A stretch of DNA of 64,000 nucleotides, taken from NCBI GenBank assembly GCA_964187785.1, contig OZ076409.1:9116001-9180000 (forward strand), in the 5' to 3' direction. The notes beneath the pieces were generated by a model. That model did no database searches, was not told the DNA's origin, and worked only from the letters and a program-made list of their open reading frames with translations. This DNA is from Amphiscolops sp. MND2022 (taxonomy: Eukaryota). The number at the start of each line of letters is the position of its first letter. Within the stretch, counting starts at the first letter, position 1. This document shows positions 8,285 to 63,446 of this stretch, piece after piece. The position numbers and the translations under genes are program-made.

Positions 8285-9060
8285 TATTTTCCGCCCATAT
8301 TTCATATGGGGAAGGAAAATATTTAAATCGAACGGGTTTTTTTAACAAAATTTGCCAAGAAATATTGTTTACGTAATATGAAGAAGTACATTCACAGAAT
8401 TCAACTGACATCAATTTAGTTCCATGCGATATGTATTTGTAAAGATTTTTGGACTTTTTTGGGAATGACGGAAATGACCCCATAATGACCCAAAAATGAC
8501 CCCGAAAATGACAAAAATTCAAAACTTTCCCAATTTTCACCGTTTTCGTGCATTTTTTGCCATTTTTTCAATAAACATCGTGGATTAGAATGTTGAAAAC
8601 GTTCAACACGGCACGAATTCGTTGTCCAATAGTATTTTTTAAGGAGATAAATGCGTCTTTTCAAAAAAATTACCCCAAAAATGATAAAAAAAATTCCAAA
8701 ATTTTTCGATTTTTAACGTTTTTATGCAATTTTTGTCAAATTTTCGATATACTTCGTGGATTAGAATGTTGAAAACGCTCAACGTGACAGAAATGGCAGG
8801 AATTCATTGTCCAGTATGCTTTTCCGAAGAGATAATGGCTGTTTTCTAAATGAAAAATATATCAAATTCAAACCGAAAATGACAAAAAACCCAAAATTTT
8901 CCAAATTTCAAAGTTTTTATGCAATTTTTGTCAAATTTTCGACAGACTTCGTAGATTGGAATGTTGGAAAGAGTCAACAAGGAACAAATTTTTTTTCCAG
9001 TAGTCTTTTTCGAAGAGATTTGGGGCGGAAAATATCCCGCTGGTCCGCGGGCGTCTTGTT
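8285..9060 (+). mobile_element. Non-autonomous Helentron-like element, family C, with three ~180-190 bp internal tandem units
   Basis: 5' TATTTTCCGCCC followed by a partial inverted repeat (..GGGGAAGGAAAATA). 3' GGGCGGAAAATA, stem-loop CCCGC..GCGGG, then CGTCTTGTT. Units starting CGTGGATTAGAATGTTG recur near 8579, 8755 and 8950. Confidence 0.65.
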
Positions 9061-11715
9061 CAATAAAATCCTAAGCCTATTCGTATTGTTGAAATCCTCC
9101 CAATAGACGAACATGAGTGACCTGGTTCTAAGAATATCAGCGACATTCCGTTGCATTTCCGTTTTCATTCAATTGAGTTCTGTGTGCGTCATTTTTGCCA
9201 TGACCCTGTAAAAACAGTATACAAAACAAAATATTGAAACCACTGCGCCTTTTGGTTCTTCCATTTTGTTAAATTCTACATCGGGTCCACTTTTTTCTGC
9301 GTCGTAGTACGTCACGAATGAGAGGGCGTTTTTTGAACACCCGTCTCCTCCTTAATAAAACGCAATATAGTTCGAAGCTAACTTCAGAACTTCGGATATA
9401 TTCCAACATTCGCGATCCCCCGCTTCCTCTTTAATAAAACGCAAATTACTGGGGATATAACGTCAAAAGGTCGGAGATAGAGTGTTGGATAAATGGGAGC
9501 GCTTTTTTCGAGCCTACGACTCCTCTCAGTTGAAACGCCCTTTACTTCGCATATAAGGTCAAAAGTTAGAATAGTGTTTTTAAACATCATTGGTGAATAT
9601 TCATCGATAAAGCCTATAAAAAACCTAAAATAAAATTTCAAACAAAGATTTAAATTTTGAAAGTCTCAAGATACAAAAAAAAACATTCAACAGGCTTTTT
9701 GGCATCTGGGCAACACCATTTGGACTTTTTAACATTTTTAATCTAATTTGTTGTAAAATATCGGAAAATATGAACGGTGGACCCTTTGGACACATTAAAC
9801 CTGTTTAATTAAACACATTAAACAAAATCAAAAAGGGGGACACATTAGTCATGTCCGGTTTTGTATGATACAATAAAAAAGAAAAAACATGAAAGGGACC
9901 CTTTGCACTAACTTAGATGCGTTTCTGAAATGTTTGTTCAGTTGAAAAATTCAAAATTTGAATTTTAGAACTACCTTCATTTGCAGCTAAAAGGAAGAAA
10001 CGAGATATCGTAATGTAATAGTCGTGCTTTTTAAGTTGAAAGCGTCGATTTAAAAACTTCTAGTCACTGTAATAGAAGGGTACGTTTTTTAAACAAATTT
10101 CTCAGATTTTTCAGCTCAGAATATTTCATTACAGTTGTTATCGATCGACAGAAACCTGAATATGTATGCTTATTTAAAAGATGTTTCAGCAAAAAATACG
10201 AACAATATTGAACTGCCGTTGCGCCTGGTATTGAAAATTGGGTTCTGAACATGCACTGAATTCCGAGAATCGTGAAAATTTTTCGCATAAAAATTCAGAT
10301 GTCAGGTGCATATTTTACGCTCTGCTGAATTCGAGGGATGAAATTCGTTTTCTGAGTGACAACTAGATTATGGCAGATTGTTATCGAAGCAGCCCAAAGC
10401 TTAGTTTTAGTGGGTTGCTTTTTGAGCAGGATTTTTTGTGGAAAACGTTTCCTTTCCGAAAGGTTCACTTTTCACAATGCTTCAGCCCAAGGTCTAATGA
10501 GTACCAACCGAGATCAACCGGTCTTCGTTTTATGTGTTTCACATTTTTCATTGATCTACAAAACTAGAGAAAAGCAAGAGTGATTCTCGCTTTTCGAATT
10601 TTTTGGCACAGTATGACTTCTAGAAAATTCAACAATTCAGCTTTCAAAAAAGGCCGTTCAAGTCCAATTACGTTTTTTTGTACCTAGATTCTTTATTCTC
10701 AGACGCAAAAGGTACTTCAGACGAATGGAATGCGTCAAGAATTGGAAGAAACTATTTTGTTCGGCTTCATCAGGAAAGGAAGCAAAGGCCAACACAGAAA
10801 AACGTATAATGGTGGCATTCATTGGATTTTTTTCTGAACTGAAAACATCAAACAACCCATAGAATGAAAAAGAATCTTTCAAAACACTTTCATAGTGTCA
10901 AAATATTCATCAAGAGACACTTTTTTAAATATGCAAAAGGACACTATTGTCAAAATTACATCACATTTACTGTGCCAAAAAGACCCGAAGGTATACCCAT
11001 AAGACTCAGAAACCGCTTTTTTCCAGCTGGAAGCATCAGAAAACCCAAGTTTTTGAAAGTGAAAATTTTCTAAATTTTGTACCGAAAAAAATCTCATAGT
11101 GCCAAAAAAGAGCTTTGAGCTTGCAAAAAAATGTCTCCGATGAGTTGCATAGTGCTGGAAAACTCTAAGGGAGCTTTCTGTGCTCGTAAAACACTATAAA
11201 AAATGCAGGAGGGCAACTCGGTTGTTCCAAAAATACATAGAAGTCACATAGTACCGAAAAAACTCGAAAGGGGTCCCCTTGGTCTTTCCTCTACACTTGC
11301 AAGCATAAAAATCTTGGTTTGGTGCGGGATTCAAATTTAAGTACTCCGCCTTCTCAGGCTTCGTCACCAGGACTGGTAATCTGGTAACGTGCGTTAACAG
11401 CTAAGCCAACAGCCGGGAGCAAGTTTATGAATATCATGAAAATATATAGAAGTGGACGTTACAGGGTGACTGCCACTGTAAGAGTCGTTCACTGTTTTTA
11501 AAAAGCACTGATTAAAAACAGCTCTTTCGCATATTTGAAAGACTTTCTGAGTTTGAAGCGGGCGCCGAATTGACACGATCCCTTTTTACACATCATGGAA
11601 ACTAGCAAACGAAACTTATAGTTGTACCTCTGCTCTTTTTAAATCAATCTATATCGGATTTGGGATTTTGTTCCGATATTGTTTTAAATGAAATCTGTCG
11701 ACGTTTTTCCGGCAT

Positions 11716-12502
11716 TTTTAGTCGGCGCTTCCGTAGAAGGAGCAAACTGTAGTAGTGACTTTTTCTAAGACCGATGAACTGACAAGATTTATAAATTTCT
11801 GTGAGCTCATAATAACTTGTATCTTCTAACTGCCACTTGGCATAGAGGTTAAGTCGGATTTTCCGAGGTCCGAGGAACAGGAGTACGTGGGTTGGAGTCT
11901 CGTACTAAACCAAAGTTTTTATGCTTGCAGAAGTAGAGAAAGTAGAAGGTCCCACATTTAGTTTTATCTGCACTATGTGACTTTTCCCCGTTGTTTTTCA
12001 ATCGAAGTTCCACCTTTTGAGGTTTAGCGGAAGCAAAGCGTTAAAGCGTTTTGCGAGCATAGAAGGTCACTGTAGGGTTTTTGGCACAATGCAGTTTACC
12101 GAAAAAAAATCTGATTTTTTTCCACAATTTTTTTCGGTTTTTTCGACAGTCTCTGGTTTTTTGAGGTTTTCTGTGTGGAAAACTTGTTCCAGAGTCCTAA
12201 GATAACCTCTTTCATCATTTTTGGTCCAGTTGGACTGATGAAAATTTTTTCAATAATTGTGGAAAAAAAGCTACGGTTTTTTCGGCACTGTGCGACTTTT
12301 CCAAAAATTTTCCACAATTTTCGTTTTTTGATGTTTGTTGAGAAGAAGCGTTTTTTACTCTCATGGGATGTCCCTCTGGATAATTTCCGGTACTGTAAAT
12401 TTGATAACATTCTCACAATCGTGTCCCTGCATATTAAAAAAAATAAAATTGCTTTGGGCGAACCTTGAGCGGGGCGCCGACTTGGGCCGTTCCCGGTTTG
12501 TT
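11716..12502 (+). mobile_element. Helentron-like family A copy with an internal tRNA-like cassette (11832-11920)
   Basis: 5' TTTTTAGTCGGCGC and 3' GCGCCGACTTGGGCCGTTCCCGGTTTGTT. Internal TGGCATAGAGG (A-box-like), GGTTGGAGTC (B-box-like) and T5. Confidence 0.65.
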
Positions 12503-62080: not shown

Positions 62081-62429
62081 GAAAACCTATATGAGGAAAT
62101 ATTAAAAAAAAGATATAACGTCATACGTTCAGACAGATTTACGATGAGAAACAAAATATTGTTATCAGACATATCAAAATAGGGTTGTCGGGGTTCGACA
62201 ATCTTAGGTAAACCGACTGTCGGGGTTCGATAGTAAAAACCACTGTAAAGAAGCAACTGTCGAGTTTCGACGGATCGCATTGGGAAAATATAGACTTTCA
62301 GAAAATGGCGGGCTTCGCCAAACTATGGCAAAGATAAAGGGTATATAAGCGATGAGAAGTTGGCAATTCGCTTTTTGCCTTTTGTCAAATTCACTGAGCT
62401 ATATTCAGTGAACACTTTCACAAATTGAA

Positions 62430-63446
62430 ACACAGAAGCGAAGCCGTGCTTCGCAAACACTTGCGAACTTTTGAAGAAAACCAAATAAGGAATATCATAC
62501 GGAAAACCAAGGGTAAAAGGAGATTAAAATTTCATCAATTTTACAGCGCCAAAAAATACCCGAAGGGATAAGCGTAAGCCTCGAAAACCATTCTTCCCCA
62601 ACTGAAAACAGCAAAAAAACCATTCTTTCTCAACGGAAAACCTTAAACAGTAAATAGAAGAAAAAAACTTCAAAATTTTTTGAAAACATTTTTGATGGTC
62701 TCCGGTAAGTCGCAAAGCCTTGAGGAGTCCTCTCGCAAAACGTTCTGTTTCTTGTAAAAATTGAGCAGAAGCTTCGGTGAAAACAATTTTTTAAAAAGTC
62801 GCATAGAAAAAAGGTCGGTCTTTAAAAAAACGGTCTTTTAAAACTAAAAATTGAGAAAAAACTTTCCGAATTTTTTCGATTTTTTTGAAGTTTCCGCTAA
62901 GTCGCATAGTGCCGAAAAATGTGAAAAAGGGACCCTTTAGGAATTTATAACATTCGTTCTGTTGCAAGATATCAAAAAATTGAAAGGAGGACGCTTTGGG
63001 GACATTAAAACATTTTTGAAAAAAATAAGGGAGTCTAAAAAAATTTTGAAAAAAATTTAGAATTTTGAACAGTCTCATAGTGCCGAAAATTCTGAAAAAA
63101 GGGACCTTTTGGGATTTTTTAGCATTCGTTCTCTTGCAAAATATCAGAAAAAAATGAACGGAGGACTCTTTGGGGACATTTAAAAAATTTCGAAAAAGTC
63201 TCACAAAGCCGCAAAGTCTCATAGTGCCGAAAAAAATCAGAACCTTCTGCTTCGGAATACTTGTGAAAAAAATTAGCGCATACCCACGGGTTCGAACACG
63301 AAACCTCTGGGTTGAAAAGCAAGCATCTTACCACTAGACCACGAACGCGTGAAACGTGCGAGTTGCCGCGTGAAATCAGAGACTTGTCGCGCGGAAAAAA
63401 AAGCACCCGCACTTTCCCATAACACTTGCTTATCGCAAGTGTAATA
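62430..63446 (-). mobile_element. Helentron-like family E element with family A-type internal repeats and a tRNA-like cassette
   Basis: 10-bp subTIR ACACTTGCGA (62457) / TCGCAAGTGT (63433). 5' hairpin ACACTTGC-TTATC-GCAAGTGT; 3' stem-loop GCGAAGC-CGT-GCTTCGC. Interior has CTCATAGTGCCGAAAA / GGGACCCTTT units. Confidence 0.65.

What the first reader, a model, noticed from the sequence alone, without database searches (positions are those of the whole stretch)
8285..63446. Five unrelated repeat families share one Helentron/DINE-1-like terminal grammar
Seen: families A (subTIR AGTCGGCGC), B (TATTATTTCTGC), C (TATTTTCCGCCC), D (CACATGACGAAG) and E (ACACTTGCGA) differ in subTIR sequence. Each starts in a T-rich flank with a subTIR that folds back on a partial copy, and ends with the inverse subTIR, a short GC stem-loop and a T-rich tail, without a TSD. 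Known: this is the architecture of non-autonomous Helentrons (HINEs, Drosophila DINE-1). Inference: a diverse radiation of rolling-circle elements recognised by structure rather than sequence, with more than 20 copies or fragments in 64 kb.
Basis: partly seen in the sequence, partly recalled or inferred. Interest (0 to 1): 0.7.

Follow-up and report, generated by a model that had tools for sequence, protein, structure and literature searches.

The report
Rolling-circle transposon remnants with shared ends
About a quarter of this stretch of eukaryotic DNA is made of short non-coding transposons of a known rolling-circle type (like Drosophila DINE-1); the type is ordinary, but the families share one insertion-site rule, join end to end, swap inner parts, and one family carries a tRNA-like piece.

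Summary
The terminal grammar is real. I count 31 copies or fragments (A 21, B 4, C 3, D 1, E 2), about 25% of the window. They fit non-autonomous HLE2 elements (Helitron2/Helentron, HINE): 5' subTIR hairpin, inverse subTIR 19-27 nt from the end, stem-loop, T^T junctions, no consistent TSD, no coding capacity. 'Unrelated' is wrong: A and E share a ~150-bp inner repeat, A and C another module and the CTTGT end, D and E the 3' hairpin. Only B stands apart; D is single-copy here. Spurious ORFs read through other copies in public assemblies gave sharp boundaries at many loci: E follows T-N-W-T (63 of 63 flanks), A mostly TTTT (116 of 121), matching published Helitron2 targets. The 3' ends of A, B, C and probably E themselves read T-N-N-T^T, and five head-to-tail joins without spacer (A-E twice, A-A, C-A, A-C) were found. 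E carries a degenerate tRNA-like A/B-box unit ~90 nt inside its 5' end. No autonomous Rep-helicase partner could be searched for. Several subTIR families per genome and module swapping are already published (mite, oyster). Verdict: new members of a known kind.

The parts
5717..6600 (+). A, 5' end and inner repeat M; no 3' end found; right edge approximate
8285..9059 (+). C, complete; three ~175-nt inner repeats
9600..10051 (-). A, degenerate 5' end plus M; left edge approximate
10900..11514 (-). A, old 5' end, M remnant and 97 nt shared with the inside of E; left edge approximate
11545..11582 (+). A, 3'-end fragment (weak hit)
11719..12501 (+). A, complete old copy
17250..17437 (-). A, 5'-end fragment; left edge approximate
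18788..19296 (+). A, complete young copy inserted in the T run of a TIR MITE (paralogous empty site)
19560..19967 (-). B, 5'-truncated
21833..22000 (-). A, 3'-end fragment; right edge approximate
23414..23684 (-). A, 5' end plus M
28110..29123 (-). E, intact 5' end, decayed 3' end, with a B copy nested inside
28337..28848 (-). B, complete, nested in E
28963..29036 (-). tRNA-like A-box/B-box unit of E (Rfam tRNA 26.8 bits, below the 29-bit cut-off)
29218..29765 (+). A, complete young copy
29772..30333 (+). A, complete, head to tail a few bases behind the previous copy
32447..33060 (-). A, complete young copy
33736..34339 (-). A, complete; holds a piece of module G shared with C
36376..36720 (+). 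A, both ends degenerate; edges approximate
36838..37590 (-). A, complete, with about three M units (168-nt tandem repeat at 37010-37324)
40099..40874 (-). B, complete, interrupted by a 285-nt insertion
41143..41593 (-). C, complete, carrying module G
45652..46028 (+). A, complete, in an SRP68-like intron
47666..48162 (-). B, complete
48571..48864 (-). D, only copy in the window; 3' hairpin shared with E; antisense tRNA-like stretch at 48695-48769
48915..49325 (+). A, degenerate, carrying module G; its 3' end abuts the 5' end of C
49326..49588 (+). C, complete, with tRNA-like stretch at 49470-49544 that recurs in another C copy (P0043)
51041..51501 (+). A, degenerate 5' end, intact 3' end, in a SEL1L-like intron
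52872..53309 (+). A, complete, in a SEL1L-like intron
54350..54961 (-). A, young, 3'-truncated
55824..56796 (+). A, complete old copy
62430..63443 (-). E, complete: 5' hairpin, tRNA-like unit, T run, two to three M units, inverse subTIR, 3' hairpin (3' end +/-1)
63275..63348 (-). tRNA-like A-box/B-box unit of E followed by a T run (Rfam tRNA 21.4 bits)

Best explanation
These are non-autonomous HLE2 (Helitron2/Helentron-type, HINE/DINE-1-like) transposons copied by a Rep-helicase encoded elsewhere. Shown: asymmetric subTIRs, two hairpins, sharp ends, T^T junctions without TSD, a target of the form T-N-N-T^T, 3' ends that read T-N-N-T^T themselves, head-to-tail joins without spacer, shared inner modules. 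Inferred from the known rolling-circle mechanism: Rep nicks one strand at the left junction (host TNNT ^ T-A...), the helicase peels it off, the 3' hairpin and 5'/3' subTIR pairing stop it at ...TTGT^T, and the strand or circle is joined into a new TNNT^T site. Because an element's own 3' end is such a site, new copies can dock exactly behind old ones, also across families; read-through of the inner ends then gives composites, which explains why A, C and E share modules. The tRNA-like unit in E is most likely captured cargo that spread with the family.
For: Grammar above chance and 5' hairpins. No TSD in 19 window copies nor in 6 of 7 ORFs that span both ends. Paralogous empty site in a MITE T run and in another A copy (P0080). 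A 5' boundary: next residue K in 94 of 97 flanks, the one after from an A-first codon in 97 of 97 (7 ambiguous), then free; held-out set 22 of 24 and 24 of 24. A 3' boundary: T-first codon in 66 of 67, then free. E 5' boundary: T at -5 and -2 in 63 of 63, base -3 A 40, T 17, G 5, C 1. Published targets TTTT^T/C (PMC3627910) and TNAT^ (PMC5148889) match A and E. Joins without spacer: P0143, P0173 (A-E), P0026 (A-A), P0043 (C-A) and 49325/49326 (A-C). Shared modules. No Rep, helicase or endonuclease family in 99 ORFs.
Against: No autonomous partner seen, so the defining link is missing. Reversed-window control gave 4 hits. TSD test found clear repeats in only 2 of 10 TIR controls, so it is blunt for old copies; one spanning ORF (P0440) fits a 4-nt repeat. 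A's subTIR is 9 nt, shorter than the 11-15 nt of most HINEs. A 3' hairpin covariation not significant. A and E differ at base -3, which argues against one identical enzyme. The 2 non-TTTT flanks of the held-out set are not end joins. Boundaries outside the window come from back-translated peptides; exact 3' ends of B, D, E rest on 1-4 window copies.
Confidence: 0.88

Rival explanations
1. Same class, but each subTIR family has its own autonomous partner; shared modules and joins come from passive nesting in T-rich ends and ectopic recombination, not from shared end recognition. This differs from the best explanation only in how modules are shared and can hold together with it.
For: SubTIRs differ completely and define families with separate partners in PMC4067079. 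A uses TTTT almost only while E prefers TNAT. B shares nothing with the others. Joins with 4-8 extra bases also occur (P0063, P0113, 29765/29772).
Against: 2 of 5 non-K A flanks and 2 of 5 G(-3) E flanks are exact 3'-end joins, where about 0.4% and 1.5% of such sites in the window are 3' ends. A and C have the same CTTGT end, D and E the same hairpin.
Confidence: 0.45
2. MITEs of a cut-and-paste (DDE) superfamily with subterminal inverted repeats and a TT duplication.
For: Inverted repeats near both ends; T on both sides could be read as a 1-2 nt TSD; DINE-1 was once classed so (PMC2374699).
Against: The 3' repeat lies 19-27 nt inside the end and is followed by a hairpin; target motif is one-sided (TNNT before, one T after); true TIR MITEs in the same window look different.
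Confidence: 0.05
3. E (and the tRNA-bearing C and D copies) are tRNA-derived SINEs moved by a reverse transcriptase.
For: A box, B box and T run in E, C49 and D; Rfam tRNA sub-threshold hits; unit present in 120 of 120 listed E hits.
Against: E's 5' boundary is fixed 87-95 nt upstream of the tRNA-like start, which a Pol III transcript could not carry; the T run would end transcription; no TSD or poly(A); the unit is antisense in D and near the 3' end in C.
Confidence: 0.03

Closest known systems
HINEs / DINE-1, non-autonomous Helentrons (PMC4067079, PMC2374699)
   Same: subTIRs, partial inverted copy beside the 5' subTIR, 3' stem-loop, T-rich insertion, no TSD, inner tandem repeats, several subTIR families in one genome (7 in a mite)
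   Different: A subTIR only 9 nt; no GTCY microsatellite or DINE core; none of the 15 subTIRs in Table S2 equals the five here; no partner found; DINE-1 lacks tRNA-like parts
Helitron2 (PMC3627910)
   Same: 8-15 nt asymmetric repeats, 5' hairpin, 3' repeat about 20-30 nt from the end upstream of a hairpin, 5' T, target TTTT^T/C as in A
   Different: autonomous protein not seen; E has a looser target
FoHeli1/2 and 3-5 of Fusarium (PMC5148889)
   Same: target TNAT^ as in E; composite elements by self-insertion proposed; FoHeli3-5 end CTCCTGT, like D/E CTGTGT
   Different: fungal, 5-11 kb, coding; joins between different subTIR families not in the passages read
Cg_HINE 1-13 of the Pacific oyster (PMC7492417)
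   Same: 11 HINEs with 140-180 nt central repeats, mixed combinations of flanks and repeats, some related and some not
   Different: oyster elements have microsatellites; main text has no occurrence of 'tRNA'
IS91 family (recalled, no call beyond a mention of its circles in PMC5148889)
   Same: rolling-circle logic in which the target tetranucleotide completes the nick site
   Different: bacterial; no sequence test done

Membership tests
non-autonomous HLE2 (Helitron2/HINE) | 5' subTIR within 0-4 nt of the end, folding on a downstream partial copy | tested here: met
   13 of 13 ends; boundaries
non-autonomous HLE2 (Helitron2/HINE) | inverse subTIR about 20-30 nt from the 3' end, followed by a stem-loop | tested here: met
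   19 (A), 22 (B), 25 (C), 27 (D, E) nt; hairpin strong in 8 of 22, decayed in old A
non-autonomous HLE2 (Helitron2/HINE) | subTIR length (8-15 nt in PMC3627910; 11-15 nt in PMC4067079 and PMC7492417) | tested here: inconclusive
   A 9, E 10, C 10-13, B and D 12 nt: all meet the wide range, A and E miss the narrow one
non-autonomous HLE2 (Helitron2/HINE) | insertion between T and T, no TSD | tested here: met
   paralogous empty sites only, no orthologous allele
non-autonomous HLE2 (Helitron2/HINE) | interspersed multi-copy, non-coding | tested here: met
   A 1163 and 277 ORF hits, E 193; no Pfam family; B and C 3-4 window copies; D one copy only
non-autonomous HLE2 (Helitron2/HINE) | ends shared with an autonomous Rep-helicase element | not testable with these tools
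   no genome held; no loci from DNA scans
Helentron in the strict sense | partner carries an AP endonuclease fused to Rep-helicase | not testable with these tools
   no partner available
DINE-1 in the strict sense | GTCY microsatellite and conserved core | tested here: not met
   no such microsatellite among 16 tandem-repeat rows; core not compared by sequence
canonical Helitron (HLE1) | 5' TC, 3' CTRR, A^T target, no inverted repeats | tested here: not met
   5' T-A, 3' TTGT/TATT, T^T target
TIR MITE | terminal inverted repeats and fixed TSD | tested here: not met
tRNA SINE (family E) | element begins at the tRNA head, has TSD and simple tail | tested here: not met
   5' boundary 87-95 nt upstream of the head in 63 flanks
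tRNA gene (unit in E, C49, D) | cloverleaf above curated score | tested here: not met
   ARAGORN 0; Rfam 26.8 and 21.4 bits for E, none for C49 and D; no cloverleaf fold

The most novel reading that the evidence does not exclude
One Rep-helicase system (or a few cross-reacting ones) reads a single T-N-N-T^T nick site plus hairpins, so that it can join the 5' end of one subTIR family directly to the 3' end of another; this in-trans end joining is the engine of module shuffling in HINEs. In addition three families took up different tRNA-derived Pol III promoters, and in E the A/B-box unit 90 nt inside the origin is kept because Pol III factors open the chromatin or the strand at the nick site: a rolling-circle transposon that uses a SINE-like promoter.
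Probability: 0.15. Interest if true: 0.65.

Novelty: new member of a known kind. Interest (0 to 1): 0.36.

Why it matters
As a class call it matters little: HINEs with several subTIR families and swapped modules are in print. What is useful: (1) one rule, T-N-N-T^T, fits the targets and the elements' own 3' ends and ties together the TT, TTTT^T and TNAT^ preferences reported separately; it predicts the nick site for HLE2 transposases, which can be tested. (2) Exact cross-family joins give a concrete route to composite HINEs. (3) E is an amplified family with a tRNA-like unit, which annotation pipelines would mislabel as a SINE. (4) These elements cover about a quarter of the window, sit in introns of housekeeping genes, and have put more than a thousand spurious proteins into public collections.

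Tried and rejected
No whole genome is held. Sequencing runs: none was listed, so no reads could be laid for empty alleles or expression. DNA pattern scans gave 0 loci in metagenome, prokaryote genome (46) and viral contigs (47). Earlier notes of the scan: nothing. Idea that the heads of A11514 and A11719 are homologous to E's tRNA-like unit: rejected (p 0.44-0.87; no Rfam tRNA hit). Selection on E's tRNA-like unit: identity about 0.95 (residues 42-59) against 0.89 (28-40), read by hand from the table because the script's region labels were shifted; inconclusive, and the hits were selected by similarity. Covariation: not significant for the A 3' hairpin; one search used a structure I set one column off and is void. 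Junction search for empty sites: 1 of 22 queries gave a real paralogous site, the other 6 hits look like AT-rich chance. P0335 (2646 aa) is an unrelated repeat protein, not a Rep-helicase; no Rep-helicase family in 25 long hits scanned. ORF 63448-63999 beside E: no Pfam or Atlas hit. Motif hits at 34498 (D), 11293, 31062, 32619 (E), 12788 (B), 61520 (C) lack the rest of the grammar and were dropped.
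Full report
Setting. The window is eukaryotic: GT-AG introns split SRP68-, SEL1L- and USP-like genes, and LTR-retrotransposon pol remnants lie at 1-4850 and 38100-40080. No whole genome is held. The host is not identified; an invertebrate animal is my guess, not a result.

The observation. All five motifs are present in inverted pairs. B, D and E read in the stated order only on the minus strand. Thirty block shuffles gave a mean of 0.77 and at most 2; the reversed window gave 4 (retuned, which gave 4, 0-1 in 20 shuffles, and 1). 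Profiles of the A ends found 17 credible 5' ends among 20 hits and 16 3' ends among 17 hits, 12 of each being training copies, with no decoy hit. With B (4), C (3), D (1) and E (2) I count 31 copies or fragments; my hand-drawn spans cover 16,281 bases, 25% of the window. All 13 5' ends folded beat at least 96% of shuffles; 8 of 22 3' hairpins beat 95%. Four young A copies are 90-95% identical over aligned bases, others 82-85%.

The families are not unrelated. All-against-all BLAST of 32 segments links A and E by a ~150-nt inner repeat, M (323 nt, 72%, E 5e-39), A and C by module G (104 nt, 84%, E 3e-26) and D and E by their last 39 nt (87%, E 2.5e-6). A and C both end in a hairpin and CTTGT. 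B has no cross-family hit. Of 37 M hits, 34 lie in A copies and 3 in E (two E units were in the profile).

No target duplication. In 19 two-ended copies the longest non-T direct repeat was 0 in 16, and 3, 3, 5 in the rest: mean 0.58, against 0.58 for mismatched flanks; 14 of 19 are followed by TT (background 0.12). One 5' anchor was 10 nt off and two 3' ends were overshot in that run, and only 2 of 10 TIR controls gave a clear flush repeat, so the test is blunt for old copies. One paralogous empty site exists: A at 18788 sits in the T run of a TIR MITE whose three other copies run through uninterrupted (1 of 22 queries).

Boundaries at many loci. Gene callers have translated these repeats, so protein searches return other copies with their flanks. 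All such records are unnamed; that they come from the same or a close species is an inference, and at least two haplotypes are present (P0001 and P0004 differ by one residue), so I counted distinct flanks. A minus-strand ORF of A gave 1163 hits, 120 listed; 100 read out through the 5' end. In 97 distinct non-self flanks the next residue is K in 94, the second comes from an A-first codon in 90 with 7 ambiguous and none against, and the third is free: T at -5 and mostly TTTT before the subTIR. A held-out set of 24 new flanks from 55 cluster members gave K in 22 and an A-first-compatible second residue in 24. A plus-strand ORF gave 277 hits, 150 listed, 77 with the 3' peptide; in 67 distinct flanks the next codon is T-first in 38, compatible in 28, against in 1, then free: the end is TTGT^T. 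An ORF of E gave 193 hits, 120 listed. In 63 distinct flanks residues -1 and -2 have T in the second codon position in 63 of 63 each, against 19-22 of 63 further out; base -3 is A 40, T 17, G 5, C 1. E thus follows T-N-W-T. The 9 non-A 5' ends in the window have T at -5 in 9 and at -2 in 7. Of 7 ORFs that span a whole A copy, 6 exclude or do not suggest a repeat outside the T runs and one (P0440) fits a 4-nt repeat; P0080 is an A copy inside the T run of another A with the host resuming in register.

One rule. The 3' ends read TTGT^T (A, C), TATT^T (B) and, if the end is set one base further than, TGTT^T (E); D does not fit. All but D start T-A. So target and own 3' end share T-N-N-T^T. Joins without spacer were found: A 3' end to E 5' end in P0143 (7 of 10 residues) and P0173 (9 of 10), A to A in P0026 (11 of 12), C to A in P0043 (9 of 12), and A to C at 49325/49326 with one mismatch. 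Joins with 4-8 extra bases occur too (P0063, P0113, 29765/29772). Intact A/C 3' ends make up 0.4% of non-T(-3) TNNTT sites and 1.5% of TNGTT sites in the window; 2 of 3 non-K A flanks and 2 of 5 G(-3) E flanks are exact joins (p 6e-5 and 0.002; 0.001 and 0.05 if ends are five times denser). The held-out set added 2 non-K flanks, neither a join, making 2 of 5. ORF selection may bias these counts.

tRNA-like units. A recalled A-box/B-box pattern gave 5 hits (mean 0.56, maximum 4 in 100 shuffles); 4 lie in E (both copies), D and C49. Rfam scores the E units 26.8 and 21.4 bits, under the 29-bit cut-off, and misses the other two; ARAGORN finds none; none folds as a cloverleaf. In E the unit starts 87-95 nt inside the 5' end and is followed by a T run and M. 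It is covered in 120 of 120 listed hits (partly by construction), 102 also cover M, and 66 cover 5' hairpin, unit and M together. So E spread as a HINE with this cargo; the fixed upstream boundary rules out a SINE. The C49 unit recurs beside a C end in P0043 (35 residues, 69%, E 4e-12). D and C49 units resemble E's (p at most 0.006), as any tRNA-like pair might. Evidence for selection on the unit is inconclusive.

Mechanism. Shown: structure, boundaries, target rule, joins, shared modules. Inferred from established rolling-circle transposition: nick at the left junction, single-strand displacement, termination at the 3' hairpin with subTIR pairing, transfer to a new TNNT^T site, composites by read-through of inner ends. 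Not shown: the enzyme. None of 99 window ORFs (97 of the 98 of at least 85 aa listed from 4900 on, plus two pol ORFs) matches a Rep, helicase or endonuclease family. Covariation in the A 3' hairpin is not significant (1 double change, 220 of 500 shuffles as high), so 'structure rather than sequence' rests on the comparison between families only. A and E differ at base -3, which favours related but distinct partners.

What is known. PMC4067079 (parts 1-3 of 8 of the text, passages, supplement S7) defines HINEs and lists 7 subTIR families in a mite. PMC2374699 (passages) gives the DINE-1 grammar and notes no tRNA likeness. PMC3627910 (passages) defines Helitron2 and the TTTT^T/C target. PMC5148889 (passages) gives TNAT^ (legend: before T; text: before A), joined ends and composites by self-insertion. 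PMC7492417 (passages) describes 11 modular oyster HINEs. PMC11417382 (passages) gives HLE1/HLE2 and T^T. PMC10294476, PMC8010984 and PMC9911081 (passages) added nothing. Other papers were seen as listings only. Searches for tRNA- or SINE-bearing Helitrons and for head-to-tail joins turned up no direct precedent in the listings or passages read; the library holds open-licence papers only, Repbase and Dfam were not available, nine of ten supplements of PMC4067079 and all figures were not seen, and capture of host DNA by Helitrons is general knowledge.

Verdict. Works like, and on every testable feature is, a set of non-autonomous HLE2 elements; Helentron in the strict sense cannot be claimed without the partner. 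New members of a known kind. The target rule, the cross-family joins and the tRNA-bearing family lift it a little: interest 0.36.

Noticed in passing
window 1-4850 (+) and 38100-40080 (-): Two decayed LTR-retrotransposon gag-pol regions (RT, RNase H, integrase, zinc knuckle), 66% alike over 430 nt.
   Followed up: partly
window 14900-15247, 16519-16852, 18585-19340, 25708-26129, 42267-42635: TIR MITE family starting CAGGG; one copy has a 7-8 nt target duplication (hAT-like); one hosts an A insertion.
   Followed up: partly
window 13043-13427 and 46709-47485: Another MITE pair; the second is split by a 389-nt insertion (46964-47352) flanked by an ACCAGT direct repeat.
   Followed up: partly
window 20035-20540, 26627-27152, 31459-31996, 18041-18446, 17630-18530: Long-TIR or fold-back elements, some TA-flanked; one TAGAGGTG-ended element is nested in another.
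   Followed up: no
window 7773-8376 and 60850-62070: Stretches that recall decayed hAT transposase (recalled motif); no Pfam hit at E 0.01.
   Followed up: partly
window 63448-63999 (+) and 59323-59700 (+): Open frames of 184 and 125 aa with no Pfam hit; the first abuts E's 5' end and has no Atlas hit.
   Followed up: partly
window 11308-11425 (-) and 11815-11920 (+): Two old A copies share a ~105-nt head with weak box-like motifs, alike to each other (p 0.002) but not to E's unit.
   Followed up: partly
window 9314-9573: Module G array standing between C8285 and an A fragment, with no clear ends of its own.
   Followed up: no
window 40229-40514: 285-nt insertion with inverted AT-rich arms inside a B copy, flanked by an AACTTG repeat.
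   Followed up: partly
P0257, P0267, P0321: Three ORFs continue with the same sequence after A's 3' end: a possible composite or 3' read-through subfamily.
   Followed up: no
P0237: A and E joined head to head across a TAATTA palindrome; each end sees TAAT^T.
   Followed up: partly
P0433, P0061: Spurious A-derived peptides fused by gene callers to an aldehyde dehydrogenase exon and to a reverse transcriptase; these repeats pollute protein collections.
   Followed up: partly
window 18803-18812 and 48602-48609: A's 5' loop holds 10 nt equal to the start of the Helentron-Da-41 subTIR, and D's subTIR 8 nt equal to the start of Helentron-Cq-31's; may be chance.
   Followed up: no
window 43745-43840 (-): B-box-like motif in an SRP68-like intron, outside any HINE; weakly like D's unit (p 0.008).
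   Followed up: partly
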